Shown here piece after piece: positions 470 to 43,359 of a stretch of 64,000 nt of DNA. The stretch lies in IMG/VR virus record IMGVR_UViG_3300025545_000003, positions 32,001 through 96,000 of that record; one strand, written 5' to 3'. Within the stretch, counting starts at the first letter, position 1, and every line of letters starts with the position of its first letter. The position numbers and the translations under genes are program-made. A model generated the notes under the pieces. The model made no database searches. It was not told the DNA's origin and saw nothing but the letters and a program-made list of their open reading frames with translations. The stretch comes from a virus.

Positions 470-503
470 TCCGGCGAAGCTCATCTGGTAGAGCGGGCGG
501 TTG
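470..503 (+). pseudogene. 5' half of split tRNA (Asn-like)
   Basis: TCCGGCG acceptor plus D-arm; pairs with CGCCGGA at 1045-1051. Confidence 0.85.
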
Positions 504-529
504 ACAACCGAAGGGTCTTGCCTTACTTT
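501..529 (+). promoter_or_regulatory. sigma70-type promoter for the endonuclease
   Basis: TTGACA-N17-TACTTT just upstream of ATG 536. Confidence 0.5.
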
Positions 530-535
530 GAGGGC

Positions 536-946
536 ATGAACAAGAGCCCTAAAACTATCGGCGAGCGCAGTGAAGGCATGGTGCTGGCAGCCCTCTTGAG
601 GGCGGGCAAGGTTGTGTTGCAACCCTTCGGGGACAACCAACGGTACGACCTTGTGGTGGATGAGGATGGGAAATTCATCCGGGTCCAGTGCAAGACCGCC
701 CGCTTGAAGAACGGCGCTTTGGCCTTCGATACATGCTCCTCTCAAACCCATCGGGGGAAGGGGAAGCAAGATTACAGGGGGCAAGCGGACTTGTTTGGGG
801 TCTATTCTCCTGACAGGGACGCCGTGTACCTTGTACCCGTTGAGGATGTCGGGGTTACCCAAGCCCGACTCAGGCTGTCCAAACCTCGTAATGGCCAATC
901 CAAAGGCGTCCGCTTTGCGGCGGATTATCTTCTCGATCTGGGGTAG
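536..946 (+). CDS. PD-(D/E)XK homing endonuclease (I-Ssp6803I-like family)
   Basis: G..SE...PFGDNQRYDLVVD...RVQCKT motif; stop TAG = positions 8-10 of the following tRNA. Confidence 0.85.
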   Translation: MNKSPKTIGERSEGMVLAALLRAGKVVLQPFGDNQRYDLVVDEDGKFIRVQCKTARLKNGALAFDTCSSQTHRGKGKQDYRGQADLFGVYSPDRDAVYLVPVEDVGVTQARLRLSKPRNGQSKGVRFAADYLLDLG

Positions 947-1009
947 CTCAATAGGTAGAGCGCCGGTCTGTTAAATCGGTTGTTGAGGGTTCAAGTCCCT
1001 CCCCCAGAG
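937..1009 (+). tRNA. tRNA-Asn(GTT), replacement copy
   Basis: Full cloverleaf, loop CT-GTT-AA. Confidence 0.93.
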
Positions 1010-1013
1010 CTAC

Positions 1014-1052
1014 AAGCTCCTCATGTTGTGGGTTCGAGTCCCACCGCCGGAG
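1014..1052 (+). pseudogene. 3' half of split tRNA (Asn-like)
   Basis: T-arm GTGGG-TTCGAGT-CCCAC then CGCCGGA-G. Confidence 0.85.
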
Positions 1053-3846: not shown

Positions 3847-3966
3847 CGAACAGTAGCTCAGTGTTGATGTACCCCCGCCAAGTTGCCGGTTGATGAAGCG
3901 GAAGGGCATCGATAGGGAGAGCGCCGGGACACTCGGAGGCCGCTGGTTCAAACCCAGCCTGTTCGA
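3847..3966 (+). ncRNA. tRNA-like RNA with a ~50-nt D-loop hairpin and no anticodon loop
   Basis: CGAACAG/CTGTTCG acceptor; GCTC/GAGC D-stem; CCGGG-ACA-CTCGG; T-arm. Confidence 0.7.
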
Positions 3967-12228: not shown

Positions 12229-12741
12229 ATGCCAACCTGCAAGAAATGTGGTGTCTCATTCCCCAACAGGATAACGGTTGAGGGGGGCAGGCGAAACATC
12301 TCCAGACGGAAATTCTGCCTGACATGTTCCCCTTGGGGGTCTCGAAACCGAAAAGACCTGAGTGCCCCCTCGATTACCAGCGGAGTGAAAACCTGCCCTC
12401 GGTGTGGGGACGTGAAGGAACTCACTGAGTTCTACACCAGACGGAGAGGTAAGGAGTCCGAGCCTTCCTCCTACTGTAAGGCATGCGCCGCAGAGGAAGC
12501 ACGGGGACGTATGCGGGCATTGAAAGCCCGTTGCGTTGAGTACAAGGGAGGCGGGTGCCGGGTTTGTGGGTACTCGAAAAGCCTCGCTGCGTTGGATTTC
12601 CATCACAGGGATCCCAAGGAGAAAGGTTACGGGATTTCGCAGATCCGAGGTTGGAAATTCGAACGGGTAAAGGAAGAATTAGATAAATGTGACCTTCTGT
12701 GTCGGAATTGCCACTCAGAGGTTCATGACGAGGCCCTGTAA
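12229..12741 (+). CDS. HNH homing endonuclease
   Basis: Zn fingers plus YKGGGCRVCGY..FHHRDP..LLCRNCHSEVH; stop TAA = tRNA positions 8-10. Confidence 0.9.
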   Translation: MPTCKKCGVSFPNRITVEGGRRNISRRKFCLTCSPWGSRNRKDLSAPSITSGVKTCPRCGDVKELTEFYTRRRGKESEPSSYCKACAAEEARGRMRALKARCVEYKGGGCRVCGYSKSLAALDFHHRDPKEKGYGISQIRGWKFERVKEELDKCDLLCRNCHSEVHDEAL

Positions 12742-34978: not shown

Positions 34979-35384
34979 TCGAGGCTGGCCGAAACAGATC
35001 ATCATCCTCCGCACCGACCTCGGCATGCGGAAGGGCAAGATGGTCGCACAGGGAGCGCACGCCTCCTTGGGCGGGATTCTGGATCACTGCACAGAGGTCG
35101 GGGACGGCACCTTCGTGATCGGCCCCGGACACACAGGGTGGAATTGGGAAGCCGTCAAGCTGTGGCTCTCCGGCAAGTTCACCAAGATCGTGGTCGGGGT
35201 GGAGACCGAGCAGGAACTCCTCGACCTATACGGTACGGCCCTGCGGGCCGGGATCGCCTGTTTCCTCTGCACCGACGCCGGGGACACTGAGTTCCACGGC
35301 GTACCTACGAACACTGCGGTCTGCATCGGGCCGGATTTTCCAGACGTGATCGACCCTATCACCGGCCACTTGAGGCTCCTCTAA
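34971..35384 (+). CDS. pth2: Peptidyl-tRNA hydrolase, Pth2 type
   Basis: KQIIILRTDLGMRKGKMVAQGAHAS..KIVV..DAGDTEF..T...IGP..IDPITGHLRLL. Confidence 0.93.
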   Translation: MTDRGWPKQIIILRTDLGMRKGKMVAQGAHASLGGILDHCTEVGDGTFVIGPGHTGWNWEAVKLWLSGKFTKIVVGVETEQELLDLYGTALRAGIACFLCTDAGDTEFHGVPTNTAVCIGPDFPDVIDPITGHLRLL

Positions 35385-35388
35385 CGAG

Positions 35389-35416
35389 GAAAGCCGGACA
35401 TCGCTGTCCGGCTTTC
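35389..35416. terminator. Hairpin between convergent pth2 and ssrA
   Basis: GAAAGCCGGACA-TCGC-TGTCCGGCTTTC. Confidence 0.7.
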
Positions 35417-35423
35417 AAGCACT

Positions 35424-35789
35424 TGGTGGAGGTGCGGGGAATCGAACCCCGGTCCTAAGATGCCTACGCCAACGCACTACGCTCATTTCCCGTGTTTATC
35501 CCGCACGGGCAAGGTGCTTCGATCCTCAACGCACATGCTGCTGTTAGTCATCGCCTTCAGGTAGCCGCCTGCCCGCTATCCTGAACGCCAACCCGTTTCT
35601 GCTGTAACCTCACGCCCCGAATCGGGTGCTCTGACGTGAGAATGAAGCACCAGCACAGTCTTTCGACTACGCTGCCGCCTGCATCGGAAGGGTCTCGTTG
35701 GCAATTAAGCCTTTGCCGTCTGTAACGCCCGACAGCACTCGGAACGAACGTTTAGCCTCGTACACCCCAGTCGAAACCAGTACACCCCC
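35424..35789 (-). ncRNA. ssrA: tmRNA, tag ANETLPMQAAA*
   Basis: GGGGGTG..TTCGAC 5' end; Ala-type acceptor with T-arm and ACCA; tag frame GCC AAC GAG...GCG TAG. Confidence 0.93.
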
Positions 35790-35790
35790 A

Positions 35791-35804
35791 AGTTTTCAAA
35801 GAAC
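35791..35804 (-). promoter_or_regulatory. boxA-like site upstream of ssrA
   Basis: GTTCTTTGAAAACT. Confidence 0.55.
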
Positions 35805-35909
35805 AGCGTGTCCTTCTATACCATCAACCCAATAGAAGGATCCTCTAAGCCTACTTCGTGTAGGTGCATGGCGTAGGCTCACGGGGTAGAGTGGATGAGG
35901 AGGACGCAC

Positions 35910-36908
35910 ATGAAGATCACATGCTTCGGTTCCCGAGGTTCGCTTCCGGCCCCGTCCCGTAAGGACTTCAGCACCGTGGAGTTTGGCGGCAACACCAACT
36001 GCTTCTTCATCGAGGCAGGGCCTTTCAAGATCATCGTCGGGTGCGGTTCTGGGGTTTCCATCCTGGGGGACGAACTGATGAAGCGTTGGGTGGAACAGGA
36101 GTTCCCCCATCAGCACTTCATCGTCCTGTTGACGCACTACCACTGGGACCACATCCAAGGGCTCCCGTTCTGCACCCCGTTCTACTTGGCCCACAACACG
36201 TTCCACTTCCACGGTCTCCGGCCTTCCGGTCACGAGGGCGGGGAACGGCTGGCGGACGGCTCGCACCCCAAGACGGTCGTGGAGACGATGCTGTCCCATC
36301 AGCAGTCCAACCCGCACTTCCCGGTGGCCCACGAGTCTCTCCCGGCCCACAAGGAGTACCAGAGCCATGACCGCCAGTTCAGCGAGGCGTTCTGGTACGC
36401 CCACGAATGGCACAGGGGTCAGGAGCAAGACGAGGCCACCCTGTTCCCCCACGGCCCCAGTACGGTGGGCGACAGGCCCGTTGGCGGCCCGGAGAACTGG
36501 ATCAAGATCACGACCGTCCCGCTGGAGCACCCGAACGGCTGCCTCGGCTGGGTCATCGAGTACGAGGGCAAGAAGGCGGCGTTCTGCTACGACATGGAAC
36601 CCTTGCGGTTCCCGAACCAGAAGGTCTCCAAGCTGGGCCACAACGCCGACCTGATGGTTCTGGACGGTGCCTACACGGAGCAGCAGCTTCAGGGCATGCA
36701 GCAAGGCTTCGGCCACGGTTCCCCTGAATCCTGCATCGAACAGGCCAAGGACTCCGACGCCAAGTTCTGCCTCATCCACCACCACGACCCCAAGCACGAC
36801 GACGACAAGCTCCGGGAGATGGAAGCCCACGCACAGGACTATGCCCTTGGGGCGATGTTCCGGGGCCGGGTCGACTTCGCCCGTGAAGGCAACGTCTACG
36901 ATCTCTGA
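35910..36908 (+). CDS. MBL-fold metallo-hydrolase
   Basis: GSRGS.P, GGNT.C, THYHWDHIQGLPF, HPNG, GHG, HHDP. Confidence 0.9.
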   Translation: MKITCFGSRGSLPAPSRKDFSTVEFGGNTNCFFIEAGPFKIIVGCGSGVSILGDELMKRWVEQEFPHQHFIVLLTHYHWDHIQGLPFCTPFYLAHNTFHFHGLRPSGHEGGERLADGSHPKTVVETMLSHQQSNPHFPVAHESLPAHKEYQSHDRQFSEAFWYAHEWHRGQEQDEATLFPHGPSTVGDRPVGGPENWIKITTVPLEHPNGCLGWVIEYEGKKAAFCYDMEPLRFPNQKVSKLGHNADLMVLDGAYTEQQLQGMQQGFGHGSPESCIEQAKDSDAKFCLIHHHDPKHDDDKLREMEAHAQDYALGAMFRGRVDFAREGNVYDL

Positions 36909-37445
36909 TCCCCTCACTTTTTAGAGGTTCACCACCATCACCACCACAACTACGGCAACACCTACGGCAACCCGTGGGGCACCCGCAGCCTCCTGGGTAG
37001 TAACAACACCCTCAGTAGCCACAGCCGCAGCCGTAGCGCCTCCAAGGGCATCGGCAGCGCCACGAAGGGTGCAGGCGGCCAGTCCGTAGACTACGGGTGT
37101 AACACCATCGGTGAGAGGAGCATGGACTTCGTCGAGGACAGCCTCTGCTCCACCGAGTGTTCGGTGGCAGCGGCGTCGGCCAGCTTCGAGGACGAGGCAC
37201 CCAGCAGGGGCATCCTCCGGGACGTCGGCACGAAGTACGGCCACGAGGTCTCTTTCCACACGACCGAGACCACGTTCACCAAGGCCACGGACGCCCCGGT
37301 ACTCGTCTGCACGCTGCGCTACGCCACCCGTGAGCGGCTGGAGACGTGGGGCGTGCCCCTCAAGCCCAAGTCGGGACCGGAAGCGCCCCAGGCGTTCCCT
37401 GCGTCCATGGACGGTTGCCCCGCCCCGAGCGGCTGGAACGGATAA
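36909..37445 (+). pseudogene. 5'-truncated gene (His6 plus low-complexity stretch in frame with ORF 37122-37445)
   Basis: Open frame with phage codon usage and no start codon before 37122. Confidence 0.45.
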
Positions 37446-37498
37446 TCCCATCCTTCTCCCTCTTGCCCCCGGTACAATGGGGGTAGGAGGGAGCCCAC

Positions 37499-37822
37499 AT
37501 GTCCAAGTTCACCGTCGACTGTTTCACCGAGAAGTCACTCCCGGAGCCGGGGTTCCCTGAGAACACCTACGAGGCGGCCACCGTGCTGGAGGCTGCGGCT
37601 GTTGTCCATAACTGCACCCGCAAGCAGGCCGGGATCAGGATGGTTCAGATCTGGATCGAAGAGCCGGACGACCGAGAGGCCGTCGACACGCTCAAGACGT
37701 GCCGGTGTGGGACGAAGGGATGCGATACAAAGCGCATTGACCCTGACGAGGTAGCGAAGGCGCTGGGGGCGGAGAAGGCCGTGAAGCCGAAGAACCTGCC
37801 CCGCAGGCCGGGGACACGGTAG
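37499..37822 (+). CDS. Hypothetical protein
   Basis: RBS AGGAGG. Confidence 0.7.
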   Translation: MSKFTVDCFTEKSLPEPGFPENTYEAATVLEAAAVVHNCTRKQAGIRMVQIWIEEPDDREAVDTLKTCRCGTKGCDTKRIDPDEVAKALGAEKAVKPKNLPRRPGTR

Positions 37823-37823
37823 G

Positions 37824-37909
37824 CGGAAGCGGAGGGAGTCGAACCCTCAAGGCCGTAAAGCTCGCCTGTTTTCAAGACAGGTGCCGTCGCCACGTCGGCT
37901 GGCGCTTCC
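37824..37909 (-). tRNA. tRNA-Ser(TGA)
   Basis: Long variable arm, G73. Confidence 0.92.
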
Positions 37910-37931
37910 AAGTTGAACAGTAGGTCTTCGT

Positions 37932-38022
37932 TGGCGGAAGGAGGGGGAGTCGAACCCCCAAGGCGCTCATCACGCTCGACCACTTTCCAAGCGGCTGCCA
38001 TCACCAATTGGCTTGCCCTTCC
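37932..38022 (-). tRNA. tRNA-Ser(GGA)
   Basis: Cloverleaf, CCA. Confidence 0.93.
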
Positions 38023-38026
38023 AAAG

Positions 38027-38113
38027 TGCGACCGGAGGGATTCGAACCCTCACGCCAGTCATTGTTGACACTGGCCCCTCAAGCCAGCGCGTCTACCATT
38101 CCGCCACGGTCGC
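38027..38113 (-). tRNA. tRNA-Leu(GAG)
   Basis: Cloverleaf. Confidence 0.93.
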
Positions 38114-38118
38114 ATGAG

Positions 38119-38200
38119 TGCTGCCGGTGGGACTCGAACCCACACACCTCAAGGGCACGGGCCTCTCAGACCCGCATGTCTACCATTCCATCACGACAGC
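38119..38200 (-). tRNA. tRNA-Leu(GAG)
   Basis: Cloverleaf. Confidence 0.93.
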
Positions 38201-38207
38201 ATAGAAA

Positions 38208-38322
38208 GCACCCCAGCACGTAGGGAACCACGGGTTGGTTACCGCTGGCCGCCCACTCCTCCCAGAAGTGCTGCTTCTCTGTGGTCTTGGACACCCCTGA
38301 TCTACAGCCCCGGCTGGGGTGC
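38208..38322 (-). ncRNA. Small structured RNA candidate
   Basis: 10-bp closure GCACCCCAGC/GCTGGGGTGC. Confidence 0.45.
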
Positions 38323-38325
38323 CTT

Positions 38326-38415
38326 TGGCGGAAGGACGGGGAGTCGAACCCCGAAGGCCGGTTAAGGCTCGCTGGTTTTCGAAACCAGTGCAGTCGCCCA
38401 TCTGCTTGCCCTTCC
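38326..38415 (-). tRNA. tRNA-Ser(CGA)
   Basis: Cloverleaf, CCA. Confidence 0.93.
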
Positions 38416-38416
38416 A

Positions 38417-38492
38417 TGGAGCGCTCGCCCGGACTTGAACCGGGGACCACCGGCTTCGGAGGCCGGGACTCTATCCACTGAGCTACGAGCGC
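38417..38492 (-). tRNA. tRNA-Arg(CCG)
   Basis: Cloverleaf, CCA. Confidence 0.94.
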
Positions 38493-38497
38493 AAAGG

Positions 38498-38648
38498 TGG
38501 GGGAGGTAGGAATCGAACCTACAATGCCCTCTCGGGCGGTCTGCTTTACAGGCAGATGTCTATACCTTGCTGAAGTCGCAACAGAGTTCCCGACCGGGGT
38601 CAGGATAAGGTCGTCACAACGAGTAGCGTGACTTTTGACCACTCCCCC
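38498..38648 (-). tRNA. tRNA-Tyr(GTA) with ~65-nt structured D-loop insertion
   Basis: Perfect acceptor, anticodon, variable and T arms; D-loop expanded. Confidence 0.8.
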
Positions 38649-38652
38649 ATAG

Positions 38653-38725
38653 AGCCAACGACGGGAATCGAACCCGTAACCCCTTGCTTACCATGCAAGT
38701 GCTCTACCGTTGGAGCTACGTTGGC
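38653..38725 (-). tRNA. tRNA-Thr(GGT)
   Basis: Cloverleaf. Confidence 0.93.
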
Positions 38726-38743
38726 ATGCTTGAATCAGACAAG

Positions 38744-38815
38744 AGCCCAGTACCGGAGTCGAACCGATGTCAGCGGGTTACAAATCCGCTGCTCTGCCAC
38801 TTGAGCTAACTGGGC
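38744..38815 (-). tRNA. tRNA-Thr(TGT)
   Basis: Cloverleaf. Confidence 0.92.
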
Positions 38816-38848
38816 AAATCAGGTGCTCTACCGTTGAGCCACGCTAGC
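38816..38848 (-). pseudogene. Orphan 5' half of a tRNA (Thr-like)
   Basis: GCTAGCG-TG-GCTCAACGGTAGAGC-A-CCTGA-TTT, abutting tRNA-Thr(TGT). Confidence 0.75.
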
Positions 38849-38852
38849 AAAG

Positions 38853-38924
38853 AGCCGAAGGTCGGAATCGAACCGACAACCTGCCGCTTACGAAACGGCT
38901 GCTCTACCATTGAGCTACATCGGC
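38853..38924 (-). tRNA. tRNA-Thr(CGT)
   Basis: Cloverleaf. Confidence 0.92.
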
Positions 38925-38928
38925 AAAG

Positions 38929-38979
38929 TGCGACCGGGGGGAGTCGAACCCCCACGCCTCAAAGGCACCGGATTCTAAG
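38929..38979 (-). pseudogene. 3' half of split tRNA-Leu(TAG)
   Basis: CTTAGAA-TCCGG, variable arm, T-arm, CGGTCGC-A. Confidence 0.88.
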
Positions 38980-39059
38980 TGGCTGAGGTGGGAGTCGAAC
39001 CCACACGCCCTAAGCGCCCGCCTCTAAAACGGGTGCGTCTACCGTTCCGCCACTCAGCC
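38980..39059 (-). tRNA. tRNA-Leu(TAG), replacement copy
   Basis: Cloverleaf; HNH stop lies within its acceptor stem. Confidence 0.92.
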
Positions 39060-39554
39060 TTTTTCTTGTTTGGTCACGGAGGTCAACCCTTTGCTATTAC
39101 ACCACCCAGGTTGTTGGGAGTGGCAGTTAGGGCACAGGAATCGTAAGTTTTCAGGGCGGTTGTCTAACCAGTCTCGGTTGATGTGGTCCACCTGTAGCAT
39201 GAGGGGTTTCCCGACCCACACTCCCTCGATCCCACAAGATTCGCACGCATAGGGCCGCCCACTGTCAAGGAGAGCCCTCCGTAAGCGGTACGCTGCGGTA
39301 CGCCTCCCTGTGTCCTTCTTTGACAGGGTAGTTAGCCACGGAGTCTTTCCCGGGCCTCCCTTATGGGCTGTTCCCTTGTTGGATCCTTGACCGTGGAAAT
39401 GGACTGTGTCGAGTCCGTATTCCCGTACCTTACGGGTGATGTGCGTTTGTGTCCCGCCCGCCTGTTTCACCCCCAAATCTCGAAGCACGCCCGCCATGGA
39501 AGTGTTCTGTTGAACAAGTGGGGCTAGGATCTCTTTTGTGTAACGTCGTCCCAT
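39054..39554 (-). CDS. HNH homing endonuclease
   Basis: CESCG..LQVDHINRDWLDNRPENLRFLCPNCHSQ. Confidence 0.9.
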   Translation of the reverse strand: MGRRYTKEILAPLVQQNTSMAGVLRDLGVKQAGGTQTHITRKVREYGLDTVHFHGQGSNKGTAHKGGPGKTPWLTTLSKKDTGRRTAAYRLRRALLDSGRPYACESCGIEGVWVGKPLMLQVDHINRDWLDNRPENLRFLCPNCHSQQPGWCNSKGLTSVTKQEKG

Positions 39555-39586
39555 ACACAGCTTACGGTATAGGCTAGCAACCGGAA

Positions 39587-39616
39587 CCGGCGTGTCTACC
39601 GTTTCACCACGGTCGC
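39587..39616 (-). pseudogene. 5' half of split tRNA-Leu(TAG)
   Basis: GCGACCG-TGGTGAAACGGTAGACAC-GCCGG. Confidence 0.88.
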
Positions 39617-39621
39617 AAAGG

Positions 39622-40465
39622 ATGACCACCCGTAGCCGGGATCCTGTTTTATGGACACATTCATCTAGTGGCCCCTACCCGTCCGCATAGCGCTGCTCAC
39701 CCGCTCTTGGCCCAACCCCGATGCCGAGAGCGTTGCCCTGAAAAGAGCTTCTGCATTCCTTGGCGTGTAAGGCCGTGACGTTGGCAGAACAGATTGAGGG
39801 ACGGGGTCACTTCGTGTTCAGCCCCGTCAGGAGAACGGACTTTGGGGTAGGGCTGCTTCTTCTTAGTGCGGCTGATCGCCGCCTTTTCCGCTTCCGTTGG
39901 GGAAGCCTTCCGACCACCCGATCCCACAGCGTTCTTATTGCCCCGCTGCAAAAGTGACAGGGCTTGCTTCGTTTCTTCTGTATGCTTGTAACCCAGGCTG
40001 TTGCCTGCTTCTGGGAGGATGTTGTACTTCTTGGCTTTCGGGGTCTTGTCCAACCACTCCTGTTCCTTCTCCAAGAGCTTGTCGTGGGCCGCCTGAACAA
40101 GCACAAAGAAGCAAATGTCCTCTTCACCCCTCTTGGCAAAGGCTCGTTGTAAGGGGGTGTTATGGTGGGTGCCTTTTCGAAGAAGCCTCCCATGTGCTGA
40201 GAACCTCTTGTAGAGATCCACTGCGGACCCGATGTAGAGCTTCCCCGAAGCCCTACTTCTGATGGCATAGACACCGCTCTTACCGTGTAGCGCAGAATAA
40301 GGGGTACCTTTCATGGAAGGGTCCAATTTCATAGGCCAAAGATACCACGTTCCTGTTTGGGTTGCACCCTCGGAAGTGCGAACGGCCTACGGCCTCCTTC
40401 CTTCAGCAGTGGTGTCCCGAGCTTCCTCACATCCCTTGCGGGGTAGTGCGTGCCCTCAGTGGTCA
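39622..40465 (-). ncRNA. rnpB: Minimal RNase P RNA interrupted by a GIY-YIG ORF
   Basis: P1 TGACCAC/GTGGTCA; GAGGAAGCTCGGG..CACC; GGGTGCAACCCAAA; GGGTAGG..CTAGATGAATG..ACAGGATCCCGGCTAC. Confidence 0.8.
39697..40332 (-). CDS. GIY-YIG homing endonuclease
   Basis: SGVYAI..LYIGSA..R...H..HHN..LQ..EQEWLD..YN; NUMOD3-like KHTEETK. Confidence 0.93.
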   Translation of the reverse strand: MKLDPSMKGTPYSALHGKSGVYAIRSRASGKLYIGSAVDLYKRFSAHGRLLRKGTHHNTPLQRAFAKRGEEDICFFVLVQAAHDKLLEKEQEWLDKTPKAKKYNILPEAGNSLGYKHTEETKQALSLLQRGNKNAVGSGGRKASPTEAEKAAISRTKKKQPYPKVRSPDGAEHEVTPSLNLFCQRHGLTRQGMQKLFSGQRSRHRGWAKSG

Positions 40466-40550
40466 TGGTGCCAGAGGGGGGACTCGAACCCCCACGCCTC
40501 AAGGACAGACGGTTTTGAACCGACCGCGTCTACCATTCCGCCACTCTGGC
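40466..40550 (-). tRNA. tRNA-Leu(CAA)
   Basis: Cloverleaf, CCA. Confidence 0.93.
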
Positions 40551-40558
40551 AAGTAAGT

Positions 40559-40647
40559 TGGTGGAGGAGGTGGGATTCGAACCCACTCACCGCAACGCGG
40601 ACCAGATTTACAGTCTGGCGTGACTCTCCAACTTCAACCGCTCCTCC
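40559..40647 (-). tRNA. tRNA-Tyr(GTA)
   Basis: Cloverleaf, CCA. Confidence 0.92.
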
Positions 40648-40651
40648 AAAG

Positions 40652-40723
40652 TGGAAAGGGGTGGAATCGAACCACCGACACGGGGATTTTCAGTCCCCTG
40701 CTCTACCTCTGAGCTACCCCTCC
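40652..40723 (-). tRNA. tRNA-Phe(GAA)
   Basis: Cloverleaf. Confidence 0.95.
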
Positions 40724-41124
40724 ATGCGTTTCCAGTCCCCGAACTCCTCCTTGCCGCCCCTGCACCCCCAGTCCGAGTCGATGACCAGGCGGGACGAGAT
40801 CCCGCCACGGGGCCGGAGGTCCGCTACGAGGCGCAACCGGGCCGGTTCATAGACCGCCACGAGATCCTCGTAGATGACGTTGATGAGGCGTTCGTAGGAG
40901 ATCACCTTGGACCTGAAGGCCACCACGTACTCCTTGAGTGCCTTCAGTTCGATGATCCAGTCCGCCGGGTAGAAGACCAACGTCAGGTGACCGAAGTCCG
41001 GTTGCTGTTTGACGCCCATGAACGTCAACTCCGGGATCTCCATCCTGATCTCGTACCCGTCTGGGTCGGGGTTCGGCAGCCTCTTCAGCTTGTCCTTCTC
41101 CGACCACTTGTCATGCTTGCCCAT
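40714..41124 (-). CDS. QueF-like T-fold protein lacking the catalytic Cys
   Basis: PE.T.....QPDF..IELKALKEY..FR...ISYE..N.I..DL...PRGGI. Confidence 0.85.
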   Translation of the reverse strand: MGKHDKWSEKDKLKRLPNPDPDGYEIRMEIPELTFMGVKQQPDFGHLTLVFYPADWIIELKALKEYVVAFRSKVISYERLINVIYEDLVAVYEPARLRLVADLRPRGGISSRLVIDSDWGCRGGKEEFGDWKRMEG

Positions 41125-41163
41125 GTCGTTCCCCCTTGTTGTCCGGGGAACTATACCGATCAG

Positions 41164-41237
41164 TGCCAAGGGGCGGGATCGAACCGCCGACACCCCGGAT
41201 TTCACCCGAGTGCTCTACCTACCTGAGCTACCTTGGC
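41164..41237 (-). tRNA. tRNA-Phe(GAA)
   Basis: Cloverleaf. Confidence 0.88.
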
Positions 41238-41243
41238 AGAAGG

Positions 41244-41315
41244 CAGAGGTAGTGGGAATCGAACCCACCCGACGGTCGGTTTTGGAGACCAACCCGCTTA
41301 CCCAGAGCCACCTCT
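41244..41315 (-). tRNA. tRNA-Trp(CCA) with atypical D-arm
   Basis: Loop CT-CCA-AA, G73. Confidence 0.75.
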
Positions 41316-41349
41316 ACAAGAATGTGCGGGGAATCGAACCGGGGCTTTG

Positions 41350-41805
41350 CTAGCGAATGAACTTGAGGGCTTGGGCGTTGACCATCTTCAGGATGTCACG
41401 GGGGGACATGGAGGCGAAGGAGGTCATCGACATGGAGTGCGTGCTGGTTTCCTCGTCCTCGATCCCCTTTTCCTCTACATAGACGAACACCCACCACTGT
41501 ACCTGGTTGCGTTGGAAGTCGGGGGTGAAGTACGCGATGACGTGGTCCTCACCCGGAGTCGAGGACTGGCTGGGGGAGGGGAGATTCGGGAAAGCGATCT
41601 CCACAGTCATCCCCTTCCTGTAAATCTCGCCCACATGGTCGGCCTGCGTGGCCTTGCCGACCTTCTTCATCCACTGGAAGAATGCCTTGTGGAACAGACC
41701 GATAAGGTCACCCGTTGCCGCCTCTTTCCGCAGAAGGGGCAGGATGTGCTTGCGGGTTTCAGGTACTTCATGGGCCAGTCTGACCAGTTCGCTTTTAAGA
41801 TCCAT
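41350..41805 (-). CDS. Hypothetical (possibly virion) protein
   Basis: RBS AGGAGG; MDLKSELVRLAH..RKHILPLL. Confidence 0.7.
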   Translation of the reverse strand: MDLKSELVRLAHEVPETRKHILPLLRKEAATGDLIGLFHKAFFQWMKKVGKATQADHVGEIYRKGMTVEIAFPNLPSPSQSSTPGEDHVIAYFTPDFQRNQVQWWVFVYVEEKGIEDEETSTHSMSMTSFASMSPRDILKMVNAQALKFIR

Positions 41806-41849
41806 GGGGTCCTCCTGTGTCCCTAATGGAACCTTATAGCCCAAGTAGG

Positions 41850-41932
41850 TGCCAGAGGGGGGACTCGAACCCCCACGCCTCAAGGATATCCGGGCTTAAA
41901 CCGGATGCGGCTACCAGTTACGCCATCCCGGC
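41850..41932 (-). tRNA. tRNA-Leu(TAA)
   Basis: Cloverleaf; 3' part identical to tRNA-Leu(CAA). Confidence 0.85.
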
Positions 41933-41941
41933 GTATGAAAG

Positions 41942-42027
41942 TGGATGATCAAGGAATCGAACCTTGCTGCCGCGTCAGCGGACCGGGGTTACAGCCCAGC
42001 GCAAGCACCAGCTTGACCGTATCATCC
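41942..42027 (-). tRNA. tRNA-Tyr(GTA)
   Basis: Cloverleaf with long variable arm. Confidence 0.85.
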
Positions 42028-42032
42028 AGAGG

Positions 42033-42119
42033 CGGAGGGAGAGGGAGTCGAACCCTCAAGGCCGATTAAGGCTCGTCCGGTTAGCAACCGGGTGCAGTCA
42101 CCGATCTGCTTGCCCCTCC
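42033..42119 (-). tRNA. tRNA-Ser(GCT)
   Basis: Cloverleaf. Confidence 0.93.
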
Positions 42120-42131
42120 GTGAATTGGACC

Positions 42132-42240
42132 GGGTCGCTCTTATCGTCTTCCTGGGGCGTTGCCACCCCGCAGACGTTTATCCACGACCAACCGCTGTAC
42201 AAGCGGCTGCGCTATCCCCCGAGGGGGAGCCCAACGACCC
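42132..42240 (-). ncRNA. Small structured RNA candidate
   Basis: GGGTCGTT/AGCGACCC closure; three internal hairpins. Confidence 0.45.
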
Positions 42241-42244
42241 AAAG

Positions 42245-42327
42245 TGCTGCTGAAAGGAGTCGAACCTTCACGCCCCGAAGGACACTTGGACCTGAACCAA
42301 GCGCGTCTACCATTCCGCCACAGCAGC
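42245..42327 (-). tRNA. tRNA-Leu(CAG)
   Basis: Cloverleaf. Confidence 0.93.
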
Positions 42328-42371
42328 AAAGAACGGTGCTGGAAGCTGGGCAACTCCCAGCACCGAAGACC

Positions 42372-42393
42372 TACTATTCAATTGTCAAAGACC
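42372..42393 (-). promoter_or_regulatory. boxA-like antitermination site
   Basis: GGTCTTTGACAATTGAATAGTA, near-identical to 118-139. Confidence 0.65.
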
Positions 42394-42429
42394 CTCTGGC
42401 CGCCGCCCTGTGGCAGAGGCCCTAAACGC

Positions 42430-42463
42430 AAAAAGCCCGCTCCGGGTGTGTCCGGGCGGGCTT
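42430..42463 (-). terminator. Attenuator terminator
   Basis: AAGCCCGCCCGG-ACACAC-CCGGAGCGGGCTTTTT. Confidence 0.85.
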
Positions 42464-42485
42464 CCAAGGTCAGCAGATGTTGTGC

Positions 42486-42584
42486 TTACCCCGTTACACC
42501 CTCCGGCGCACTCGTGGACAGATACGACCAGCCGGTAAGGCTGACGTGCGTCCGCAAGCTGAAGGTTGTAAATAAGGTCTGCAT
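42486..42584 (-). CDS. Leader peptide MQTLFTTFSLRTHVSLTGWSYLSTSAPEGVTG
   Basis: RBS AGGAG; lies between promoter and terminator; codons mirror the downstream tRNAs. Confidence 0.75.
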   Translation of the reverse strand: MQTLFTTFSLRTHVSLTGWSYLSTSAPEGVTG

Positions 42585-42608
42585 CTCGGTCTCTCCTGTT
42601 CGCCCCTG

Positions 42609-42637
42609 ACGCTAGAGGCCCTTTGGGCTCCTGTCAA
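42609..42637 (-). promoter_or_regulatory. sigma70-type promoter of the tRNA-array leader
   Basis: TTGACA-N17-TAGCGT. Confidence 0.7.
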
Positions 42638-42759
42638 GGCTTTTCTCACGAAGATCCCCACAGGGGGGCTTCACGTCCGTCCACACAGAACAGGAAGGGC
42701 CTAAGCCCCTTGCCGGTAGATTCGTTATGAGGCTACTCCAGTAGGACATGGAGGCCCGC

Positions 42760-43359
42760 ATGAGCAAGCACACGAACCGGGTAGCAGCCCGGTATATTAA
42801 GAGAGCCGCCAGCGAAGACCGCAAACAGTTCGACATGGGCGTCAAGGCCATCGGGACATCGCTCCTGCGGATGAAGGACGTGGTCTTCCTCTGGACAGGG
42901 AGGGGAACACCCCCTCCGGGACACGGGGCAGAGGGCTACGAGTCCCTGGCTGACGTGTACGGCCCTGTGCAGCATGTCGTGAACAAGATCGAGGACCTTG
43001 AGAAAGCCTACATCAGCCTCAAGCGTGTTCGTGTGGCCTCCAAGCGGATGGACCCCAAGTTCAAGCGGGCCGTCATTCCGTTGTTCAAGCGGGCAGGCCT
43101 GGATGGCAACGGGCGGTTCAGGAAGCCCCAACACGGGTACTCCAAGGCGTTGGACATCCTCGCCAAGTTCGAGATCGAACTGGACGACGTCGTGTCGTCC
43201 CACCTGTTCAACGGGGACAGCGGGACGATCCGGGCGGACCTGGCCTATTCGAACTCAGAGGACCCGTTCTCCCCTGAGTCGATTTCCAACTCGGTGCTGG
43301 TCATTTCGTTCACTAAGATGGCCAAGGACAGCTATGAGGTGCTGGCGTATCTGTCATGA
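42760..43359 (+). CDS. Hypothetical (probable virion) protein
   Basis: RBS GGAGG; RVAARY motif. Confidence 0.75.
   Translation: MSKHTNRVAARYIKRAASEDRKQFDMGVKAIGTSLLRMKDVVFLWTGRGTPPPGHGAEGYESLADVYGPVQHVVNKIEDLEKAYISLKRVRVASKRMDPKFKRAVIPLFKRAGLDGNGRFRKPQHGYSKALDILAKFEIELDDVVSSHLFNGDSGTIRADLAYSNSEDPFSPESISNSVLVISFTKMAKDSYEVLAYLS

What the first reader, a model, noticed from the sequence alone, without database searches (positions are those of the whole stretch)
38929..39616. Sixth cassette with the anticodon preserved: Leu(TAG) replaced by Leu(TAG)
SEEN (- strand): 5' half GCGACCG.. (39616-39587), HNH ORF (39554-39054) whose TGA lies in the acceptor stem of a complete tRNA-Leu(TAG) (39059-38980), then the 3' half, which still carries CTTAGAA-TCCGG and CGGTCGC-A. 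Here the disrupted and rescuing genes demonstrably share the same anticodon. This is the cleanest evidence for like-for-like replacement.
Basis: seen in the sequence. Interest (0 to 1): 0.78.

Follow-up and report, generated by a model that had tools for sequence, protein, structure and literature searches.

The report
Nuclease cassette with spare tRNA-Leu
In an uncultured phage, a selfish DNA-cutting-enzyme gene sits inside a broken leucine tRNA gene and carries a complete spare of the same tRNA, so it does by gene replacement what its intron-borne relatives do by RNA splicing.

Summary
On the minus strand lie, in order: the first 30 nt of a tRNA-Leu(UAG) gene, a 32-nt leader, an intact 166-aa HNH endonuclease ORF, and a complete but differently spelled tRNA-Leu(UAG). 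The ORF's TGA is at positions 4-6 of that tRNA. The other 52 nt of the broken gene follow. The joined halves give a canonical 82-nt Leu(UAG) cloverleaf. The inner gene is the only intact Leu(UAG) in the 107-kb virus record.

New here: this HNH family (phrog_10822) is tied to tRNA-Leu genes across many phages. In 17 of 20 non-redundant loci a Leu(UAG) gene abuts the HNH gene (p about 4e-30). In Felix O1-like phages the gene is a clean present/absent indel at the 5' edge of tRNA-Leu(UAG). In a 595-kb phage a 37% relative lies inside the classical tRNA-Leu(UAA) group I intron. A second nested case (L050) and a paralogue in this window (Gln cassette) break the outer tRNA at the same place, position 30/31.

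Best reading: a homing cassette that replaces its target like for like. Cleavage, and an uninterrupted allele in this lineage, remain unshown. The scan had already noted this design in this genome (e1-6018314, e1-6018329).

The parts
39587..39616 (-). 5' fragment of the disrupted (outer) tRNA-Leu(UAG) gene: tRNA positions 1-30, i.e. acceptor strand, D arm and 5' strand of the anticodon stem
   Evidence: Its acceptor stem is identical to that of the phage's own tRNA-Leu(gag) at 38026-38113.
39555..39586 (-). 32-nt leader of the insert, between the 5' fragment and the ATG. It has no clear Shine-Dalgarno sequence. It begins TTCCGGT, repeating the TCCGGT of the outer 3' anticodon-stem strand.
   Evidence: No promoter or terminator consensus in 38700-40600.
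39054..39554 (-). HNH homing-endonuclease ORF, 166 aa. It has an intact DH...N...H motif and two CxxC pairs. The start is fixed by homologues that align from residues 1-4.
   Evidence: Pfam, PHROG 10822, more than 3000 homologues, tblastn. GC3 is 0.60 against 0.765 in the phage's long ORFs.
38980..39059 (-). Complete inner tRNA-Leu(UAG), 80 nt, with A73 and no encoded CCA. Its first six bases overlap the last sense codon (GGC) and the stop (TGA) of the HNH ORF.
   Evidence: ARAGORN; Rfam 53.7 bits. It is the only intact Leu(tag) in the genome.
38929..38980 (-). 3' fragment of the outer tRNA-Leu(UAG): positions 31-73, with the whole anticodon loop CTTAGAA, variable arm, T arm, acceptor strand and A73. 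A38980 is shared with the inner tRNA.

Best explanation
The locus is a 606-bp mobile cassette: leader, HNH homing-endonuclease gene and a nuclease-resistant tRNA-Leu(UAG) allele. It sits inside the phage's resident tRNA-Leu(UAG) gene, at the boundary between the 5' strand of the anticodon stem and the loop (position 30/31).

Proposed mechanism (inferred):
1. The HNH enzyme recognises the anticodon stem-loop of susceptible tRNA-Leu genes, around GGACTTARAATCC, and breaks the DNA there in phage genomes that lack the cassette.
2. Repair from a cassette-bearing genome, using the two tRNA halves and their flanks as homology, copies the cassette into the break.
3. The target gene is destroyed. Decoding is kept because the cassette brings a complete Leu(UAG) gene with a different anticodon stem (CCCGT/GCGGG instead of CCGGA/TCCGG), loop ends and acceptor stem, which the enzyme should not cut.
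4. The first nested copy must have arisen by a non-homologous capture of an 'HNH gene abutting tRNA-Leu(UAG)' module, the form seen in most other phages.

Because the stop codon lies inside the inner tRNA, RNase P processing of that tRNA would remove the stop from the HNH message. That would keep nuclease expression low. This step is also inferred; the same argument was made for SegB in PMC2330249.

Shown: the anatomy, the family-wide linkage to tRNA-Leu, the mobility of family members, the shared breakpoint, and an intron-borne relative in the same tRNA region.
Inferred: cleavage specificity, resistance of the inner allele, and ongoing homing.
For: - Nested anatomy, and a perfect cloverleaf from the joined halves.
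- The outer gene looks resident and the inner looks imported. The outer shares its acceptor stem with the phage's Leu(gag); the inner acceptor stem resembles no other Leu tRNA here. The HNH ORF has GC3 0.60 against 0.765 for long phage ORFs.
- Family linkage. In 20 non-redundant loci with HNH at least 42% identical, 17 have Leu(tag) within 80 nt. Of the flanking tRNAs, 17 of 28 are Leu(tag), against 1 of 145 other tRNAs in the same loci (binomial p 3.6e-30). The cultured phages mistaenkt, Michonne, phiPsa347, Vibrio D69, EFDG1 and GodonK show the same.
- Mobility. In Felix O1-like phages the HNH gene is a clean indel of about 455 bp at the 5' edge of tRNA-Leu(tag). It is present in about 10 of 309 related records.
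- Same target region. A 37% relative (E 3e-27) is encoded inside a 700-nt intron at U34|A35 of tRNA-Leu(UAA) in LR756511.1. A 36% relative lies beside an intron-bearing tRNA-Leu(UAA) in L011.
- Shared breakpoint. The outer 5' fragment ends at position 30/31 in this cassette, in L050 (46% HNH, inner Leu(gag)) and in the window's Gln cassette, whose HNH is a 34% paralogue.
- Motif. All three interrupted Leu genes with a preserved loop carry GGACTTARAATCC. So do 5 of 74 intact Leu(tag/taa) genes in the fetched loci, and none of the HNH-abutting Leu(tag) partners.
- The HNH motif and zinc cysteines are intact, and the protein is identical on 78 contigs.
Against: - No uninterrupted allele of the outer gene was found in this phage lineage. 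There were zero exact matches of the 5' half in viral or metagenome contigs.
- No cleavage data exist.
- In Felix O1-like phages the Leu(tag) alleles of HNH-plus and HNH-minus genomes are almost identical. There, the tRNA body alone cannot be the discriminating site.
- EFDG1 carries a Leu(taa) gene with the proposed motif 196 nt from its own HNH gene, which is 31% identical. The motif is therefore not sufficient for every family member.
- The motif was defined after seeing the data, from three cases.
- Both junctions are blunt or 1-nt joins with no flanking homology, so how the first nested copy formed is unexplained.
- The HNH tree is poorly resolved.
Confidence: 0.72

Rival explanations
1. 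This is a one-off rearrangement, not an active homing element. A double-strand break in the tRNA array, made by any of the many nucleases in this phage, was patched by ectopic or non-homologous insertion of a neighbouring 'HNH plus tRNA-Leu' segment. The structure is now a frozen scar, and the HNH gene may be domesticated or idle.
For: Both junctions lack homology or target-site duplication. No empty site was found. There is no sequence variation among 78 contigs. SegB-type nucleases are known to drive segmental rearrangement of tRNA regions (PMC13096335).
Against: There are six nested cassettes in one genome. An independent nested case occurs in another contig with the same 5' breakpoint. Family members are demonstrably present/absent in close relatives. 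Both halves are free of any stem-breaking change, and the ORF is intact.
Confidence: 0.17
2. The insert behaves as an intron-like intervening sequence. The outer tRNA is still made, because the 606-nt insert is removed at the RNA level by self-splicing, by tRNA-processing enzymes plus an RNA ligase, or by a bulge-helix-bulge type reaction. The phage would then have two Leu(UAG) tRNAs.
For: Relatives of this HNH do live in or beside group I introns in the same region of tRNA-Leu genes. The halves are perfectly preserved. Cleavage directly after the inner discriminator, as RNase Z does, would leave the outer 3' half starting at C32 (inference).
Against: No Rfam intron family scores at E < 1 anywhere in 35000-43000. 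The insert is filled by a 32-nt leader, the ORF and a tRNA, which leaves no room for a ribozyme core of about 200 nt. The junction bases (5' side G or T, 3' side A) do not fit the U and terminal-G rule of group I introns. The 5' half would keep a tail of about 530 nt after processing. Bacteria lack the archaeal splicing endonuclease (established knowledge).
Confidence: 0.04
3. The swap is mainly an anti-defence adaptation. The inner tRNA was selected because its changed anticodon stem and loop ends (T32, G38) escape a host anticodon nuclease that cuts the outer type. The nuclease gene is merely the vehicle.
For: The inner and outer genes differ at positions 32 and 38 and throughout the anticodon stem. 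Phage tRNA arrays are linked to tRNA-targeting defences (PMC13096335).
Against: Nothing in the window ties this tRNA to a defence system. The HNH-Leu(UAG) linkage exists in phages of very different hosts. The reading is not exclusive of homing.
Confidence: 0.05
4. The pattern is due to chance resemblance or a chimeric assembly.
For: None beyond the general possibility in metagenome-derived contigs.
Against: The two fragments together form a complete cloverleaf: 7-bp acceptor, 5-bp anticodon, D, variable and T arms. The same read-through ORF across the 5' junction is on 78 contigs from five sources. Five parallel cassettes lie in the same window.
Confidence: 0.02

Closest known systems
Phage T4 SegB, a free-standing GIY-YIG homing endonuclease in the tRNA gene cluster (PMC2330249; PMC13096335)
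   Same: It is a nuclease gene embedded among phage tRNA genes. It recognises tRNA-gene sequence, cuts tRNA genes of relatives that lack it, and is inherited together with neighbouring tRNA genes. Its expression is thought to be limited by tRNA processing of the transcript.
   Different: SegB has a GIY-YIG fold and recognises the universal T-loop motif. Its homologues show no isotype preference, and it lies between genes. Here the enzyme is an HNH of another family, is tied to one isoacceptor, and sits inside the target gene with a complete spare.
[quoted passage not shown] 2004, cited in PMC2330249)
   Same: They are HNH-type site-specific nucleases whose ORFs lie in a phage tRNA cluster.
   Different: As far as the text I could read goes, they are free-standing, and no split target with a replacement gene is described. 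Sequence relatedness to this protein was not tested.
Homing endonucleases encoded in group I introns, including the intron in the anticodon loop of tRNA-Leu(UAA)
   Same: The region of the same kind of gene is interrupted. A 37% identical HNH is encoded in such an intron in the uncultured phage LR756511.1. The element neutralises the damage of its own insertion.
   Different: No ribozyme is present here. Function is restored at the DNA level by a second gene, not at the RNA level by splicing. The insertion point is 30/31, not 34/35.
Synthetic 'home-and-rescue' and 'cleave-and-rescue' gene drives (HomeR, ClvR; recalled from my own knowledge, not checked in the library)
   Same: A nuclease disrupts a needed gene, and the element carries a recoded, uncuttable copy of it.
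   Different: Those are engineered Cas9 systems in insects. This would be a natural protein-guided counterpart in a phage, and the need for the tRNA is presumed, not shown.
Integrase-driven elements that insert into tRNA genes and restore the 3' end from attP
   Same: The target is a tRNA gene and function is preserved after insertion.
   Different: The 606-bp insert has no integrase and no att repeats. A whole tRNA gene is supplied rather than a duplicated 3' segment, and both halves of the old gene remain.

Membership tests
HNH (His-Me finger) endonucleases | HNH catalytic motif with zinc-binding cysteines | tested here: met
   Pfam PF01844 E 3.6e-7 and PF13392; PHROG 10822 E 4.9e-48. The motif VDHIN...DN...NL...CPNCH and the pair CESC/CPNC are conserved with homologues.
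Homing endonuclease genes (mobile) | Present/absent polymorphism at the same site in closely related genomes | tested here: inconclusive
   Met for family members in Felix O1-like phages: a clean 455-bp indel, about 10 of 309 records.
Homing endonuclease genes (mobile) | Site-specific cleavage of the allele that lacks the element, and resistance of the element-bearing allele | not testable with these tools
   This needs an in vitro cleavage assay. The only indirect support is the shared breakpoint at position 30/31 in three nested cases and the motif comparison.
Free-standing homing endonucleases of phage tRNA clusters (SegB-like lifestyle) | ORF lies in a tRNA cluster, outside any intron or intein | tested here: met
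   52 tRNA genes in the window. No intron family at E < 1. The ORF is not in frame with a host protein gene.
Seg (GIY-YIG) family, to which SegB belongs | GIY-YIG catalytic domain | tested here: not met
   Only HNH domains were found. It works like SegB but is not a member.
Group I intron with an internal endonuclease ORF | Conserved ribozyme core (P3-P9), U at the end of the 5' exon, terminal G | tested here: not met
   No Intron_gpI hit at E < 1 in 35000-43000. By contrast, hits were obtained in L011 (33 bits, E 1e-6, full model) and L118 (weak partial hit: 15.3 bits, E 0.35, model positions 60-138). The junction bases do not fit.
Split or permuted tRNA genes joined at the RNA level (archaeal type) | Bulge-helix-bulge motif or complementary leader and trailer, plus a splicing endonuclease | not tested
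   No formal search for a bulge-helix-bulge motif was run. By eye, the leader (39586-39555) and the sequence before the 3' half (the inner tRNA's 3' end) are not complementary. The splicing enzyme is unknown in bacteria (established knowledge).
Functional tRNA-Leu (inner gene) | Cloverleaf with long variable arm, A73, G18G19, T-loop | tested here: met
   ARAGORN Leu(tag), 80 nt; Rfam 53.7 bits against a threshold of 29. Aminoacylation is not testable here.

The most novel reading that the evidence does not exclude
One HNH family has solved the same problem, how to live in the anticodon region of tRNA-Leu genes without killing the carrier, in three interchangeable ways: inside a self-splicing intron, abutting the gene, and as a 'home-and-rescue' cassette that destroys the target and supplies an uncuttable spare. 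The cassette form would be a natural gene drive with built-in rescue. It would also be a route by which phage tRNA arrays gain and exchange isoacceptors.
Probability: 0.45. Interest if true: 0.8.

Novelty: new variant of a known kind. Interest (0 to 1): 0.66.

Why it matters
Free-standing homing endonucleases in phage tRNA clusters are known (SegB, the T5 F-Tfl enzymes). I found no paper describing a nuclease gene that sits inside its broken target together with a full replacement gene, nor one describing a nuclease family bound to a single tRNA isoacceptor.

If the reading holds, three things follow:
- It gives a natural precedent for rescue-type gene drives.
- It explains part of the turnover and redundancy of phage tRNA arrays.
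- It yields a sharp prediction that can be tested in cultured phages: enzymes of PHROG 10822 cut tRNA-Leu genes near position 30-32. Candidate test pairs are mistaenkt or Michonne against fjerdesal or Mijalis.

The intron-borne cousin links intron homing and intron-less homing within one protein family.

Tried and rejected
- A megablast of 38500-40500 against GenBank phages found nothing.
- Exact-pattern scans for the outer 5' half found nothing in viral contigs or metagenome contigs. The inner tRNA found nothing in viral contigs. No empty-site or sister allele was therefore obtained.
- The junction 29-mer hit only unrelated Leu(tag) genes with other acceptor stems: an IMG/VR phage (L001) with A31 and an Oligoflexales MAG (L114) with G31. 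These are not empty sites.
- A search with the neighbouring QueF-like protein for kin phages gave no relatives.
- The genome search 'relatives' is not available for a virus record.
- A maximum-likelihood tree of 41 HNH homologues was too poorly resolved to show clean isoacceptor clades. I use the enrichment count instead.
- The HNH of cassette 5 (12229-12741) is not a relative.
- No solved structure is close (best hit McrA, E 0.079). No fold prediction was run.
- Rfam gave no RNase P signal in 39560-40480, so I could not support the neighbouring note e1-6018328. A split RNA would escape that test, however.
- I did not resolve the identity of the outer genes of cassettes 1, 2, 4 and 5. Cassette 1's outer loop reads TTGACAA, which suggests Val rather than Asn, so like-for-like may not hold for all six.

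Full report
**The object**

The window belongs to a single-contig virus record of 106,830 bp with 61.7% G+C. It carries 52 tRNA genes and a tmRNA gene. On the minus strand between 39616 and 38929 the sequence reads as follows:
- the first 30 nt of a tRNA (GCGACCG TG GTGA AACGGTAG ACAC G CCGG);
- a 32-nt leader;
- an ORF from ATG 39554 to TGA 39056-39054;
- a complete tRNA-Leu(tag) at 39059-38980;
- 52 nt that begin with (A)CTTAGAA TCCGG and end with a T arm, CGGTCGC and A.

ARAGORN and Rfam call the inner tRNA. Its first six bases are the last sense codon and the stop codon of the ORF. The ORF is an HNH endonuclease: Pfam PF01844 at E 3.6e-7 and PHROG 10822 at E 4.9e-48. Homologues align from residues 1-4, which fixes the ATG at 39554 as the start.

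**Do the halves make a tRNA?**

Yes. Joining 39616-39587 to 38980-38929 gives an 82-nt class II tRNA-Leu(tag) with every stem intact and A73. The free MFE fold is the same cloverleaf. A38980 can serve as the inner discriminator or as outer position 31. An intact Leu(tag) gene in an unrelated IMG/VR phage has the same 29-mer with A at that place, and a bacterial MAG has G.

My scan for orphan T-arm-plus-acceptor segments with an upstream complementary strand found this pair and five more in the window.

The 191-aa read-through ORF from GTG 39629 covers the 5' fragment, the leader and the HNH gene. It is recorded letter for letter on 51 + 27 contigs from five sources. The order is therefore not an assembly accident.

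**Which gene is resident?**

- The outer gene shares its whole acceptor stem with the phage's own tRNA-Leu(gag) at 38026-38113. The inner acceptor stem (GGCTGAG) resembles no other Leu tRNA here.
- The HNH ORF, like all the other nuclease ORFs in the arrays, is poorer in G+C at third positions (0.60) than the phage's long ORFs (0.765).
- The inner gene is the only intact Leu(tag) in the genome.

**The nuclease family is bound to tRNA-Leu**

Homologues at 42-51% identity occur in IMG/VR contigs, JGI metagenomes and GenBank phages.

- In 17 of 20 non-redundant loci a Leu(tag) gene lies within 80 nt of the HNH gene.
- Of the tRNAs that flank the HNH gene, 17 of 28 are Leu(tag). Among all other tRNAs of the same loci the figure is 1 of 145 (p 3.6e-30).
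- The exceptions carry Leu(gag) or Leu(aag).
- Below about 40% identity, other partners appear (Gly, Val, Gln).
- Among cultured phages, an HNH gene running up to or into a Leu(tag) gene is seen in Escherichia phage mistaenkt, Citrobacter phage Michonne, Pseudomonas phage phiPsa347, Vibrio phage D69 and Enterococcus phage EFDG1. In Gordonia phage GodonK the order is reversed: a tRNA-Leu, called Leu(tag) by ARAGORN, ends 7 nt upstream of the HNH gene, whose stop overlaps a downstream tRNA-Glu(ctc).
- The stop codon usually abuts or overlaps the downstream tRNA, at positions -3, 4, 8, 13, or even 34-36, the anticodon position.

SegB homologues, by contrast, show no isotype preference (PMC13096335).

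**Family members are mobile**

Felix O1-like phages offer a natural comparison. The HNH gene of mistaenkt and Michonne is a clean insertion of about 455 bp, exactly at the 5' edge of tRNA-Leu(tag), and is bounded by a 9-bp repeat. About 10 of 309 related records have it. Fjerdesal and Mijalis lack it.

The Leu alleles with and without the HNH gene are nearly identical there. In that clade the insertion itself, and not a changed tRNA, must protect the carrier.

**The same region of tRNA-Leu is hit by relatives in other ways**

- In the 595-kb uncultured phage LR756511.1, a 154-aa relative (37% identity, E 3e-27) is encoded inside a 700-nt intervening sequence. This sequence interrupts tRNA-Leu(UAA) at the classical U34|A35 site and ends in G. 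The core-like motif GTAGAGACTA is visible by eye, but Rfam support there is weak (15.3 bits, E 0.35, a partial match). The joined exons give tRNA-Leu(taa).
- In L011/L067 a 36% relative lies just after a tRNA-Leu(UAA) that holds a 244-nt group I-like intron (Rfam 33 bits, E 1e-6).
- In L050 (WUUC01217222.1) a 46% relative with an inner Leu(gag) is nested in a split tRNA. That tRNA's 5' fragment ends after CCGGA, at position 31.
- The window's Gln cassette carries a 34% paralogue (E 2e-24), and its outer 5' fragment also ends at position 30/31.

All three nested cases of this family therefore share the 5' breakpoint, three or four bases from the intron site of the intron-borne cousin.

The three interrupted Leu genes whose loop survives all read GGACTTARAATCC. 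Only 5 of 74 intact Leu(tag/taa) genes in the fetched loci do so, and none of the HNH-abutting Leu(tag) partners does. This motif was defined after the fact, and EFDG1 is a counter-example, so I treat it as a lead.

**What it is not**

- No intron family scores at E < 1 in 35000-43000, and the insert has no room for a ribozyme.
- No promoter or terminator consensus lies in 38700-40600. The cassette is therefore part of the polycistronic tRNA transcript.
- The insert contains no integrase and no att-like repeat.

**Mechanism**

I read the locus as a homing cassette that carries its own replacement for the gene it destroys.

- Shown: the anatomy, the linkage, the mobility of relatives and the common breakpoint.
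- Inferred: cleavage at the anticodon stem-loop of susceptible alleles, resistance of the inner allele (it differs throughout the anticodon stem and at positions 32 and 38), and copying by break repair.
- Unexplained: the origin of the first nested copy. The junctions are blunt or 1-nt joins. In all three nested cases of this family the 3' junction falls directly after the inner tRNA's 3' end, which in the Gln cassette includes an encoded CCA. That regularity is also unexplained.
- A further inference: since the stop codon lies inside the inner tRNA, RNase P cleavage would leave a stop-less HNH message. This would hold nuclease levels down, as proposed for SegB (PMC2330249).

**Literature**

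Seven full-text searches found SegB, the T5 F-Tfl enzymes and general surveys. None described a split tRNA gene with an enclosed nuclease and spare tRNA, or an HNH family specific for tRNA-Leu. The library does not cover most subscription journals.

**Limits**

- No kin of this phage were retrievable.
- No biochemical evidence is available.
- The scan had already reported the design for this genome (e1-6018314) and this very stretch (e1-6018329).
- What this report adds: the confirmation of the Leu(UAG) pair, the family-wide evidence, the intron-borne relative, the second nested case and the indel in cultured phages.

Noticed in passing
L118:1315-2101 (GenBank LR756511.1, uncultured 595-kb phage): A tRNA-Leu(UAA) gene is interrupted at U34|A35 by a 700-nt group I-type intron (Rfam only 15.3 bits, E 0.35, partial) that encodes an intact 154-aa HNH, 37% identical to the window's enzyme. 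The joined exons give tRNA-Leu(taa).
   Followed up: partly
L011:1228-2012 (the same contig as L067; IMGVR_UViG_3300024342_000794): A tRNA-Leu(UAA) is interrupted by a 244-nt group I-like intron (Rfam 33 bits, E 1e-6). The intron appears to lie between positions 31 and 32 rather than 34/35, with A and not U before the 5' junction. A 36% HNH homologue follows the tRNA and has in-frame TAG codons, so the phage may use an alternative genetic code.
   Followed up: partly
L050:74-702 (WUUC01217222.1): This is a second nested cassette of the same HNH family. The order is: 5' fragment ending CCGGA; HNH (46% identity) whose TAG stop is tRNA positions 8-10; a complete short tRNA-Leu(gag); then a 3' remnant that starts inside the 3' anticodon-stem strand. 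The outer anticodon loop is lost.
   Followed up: partly
L028:1489-1941 and L029:1483-1935 against L115 and L116 (Felix O1-like phages): The HNH gene is a clean present/absent indel at the 5' edge of tRNA-Leu(tag), bounded by the 9-bp repeat GATTTAATG. The 60 nt upstream differ between fjerdesal and the HNH-plus phages, as a co-conversion tract would.
   Followed up: partly
window 39581-39586 and 38967-38972 (- strand): The leader begins TTCCGGT, so the hexamer TCCGGT of the outer 3' anticodon-stem strand occurs on both sides of the insert. This could be chance or a trace of how the break was repaired.
   Followed up: no
window 38499-38648 (- strand): A 150-nt tRNA-like RNA lies between tRNA-Thr(ggt) and tRNA-Arg(ccg). 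It has a 7-bp acceptor-like stem, a canonical T arm and four extra hairpins. MFE is -61.8 kcal/mol with z = -4.1. Rfam gives only a weak tmRNA hit.
   Followed up: partly
window 3847-3965 (+ strand), 41943-42027 and 41245-41315 (- strand): Further tRNA-like genes were missed by ARAGORN. One is a 119-nt element with acceptor and T arm and an enlarged middle (z = -1.4). The other two score about 40 bits on the tRNA-Sec model in Rfam.
   Followed up: no
window 39697-40332 (- strand) and its flanks 39617-39696 and 40333-40465: A GIY-YIG plus NUMOD3 endonuclease ORF lies directly upstream of the cassette. Rfam gives no RNase P hit above noise in 39560-40480, but a split RNA would escape that search.
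   Followed up: partly
window 470-1051 (+ strand), cassette 1: The outer 5' fragment seems to run through an anticodon loop TTGACAA (GAC, Val) while the inner tRNA is Asn(gtt). Like-for-like replacement may therefore not hold for every cassette in this genome.
   Followed up: no
L004, L007/L055, L023/L049, L028, L029, L054 and others: Many HNH-linked tRNAs with anticodon TAG are short (74-77 nt), have no long variable arm, and share the D arm GTAGCCCAACGG(C/T)AGAGGC. This is an unusual shape for a leucine tRNA. In L054 the HNH stop codon is the anticodon TAG itself.
   Followed up: no
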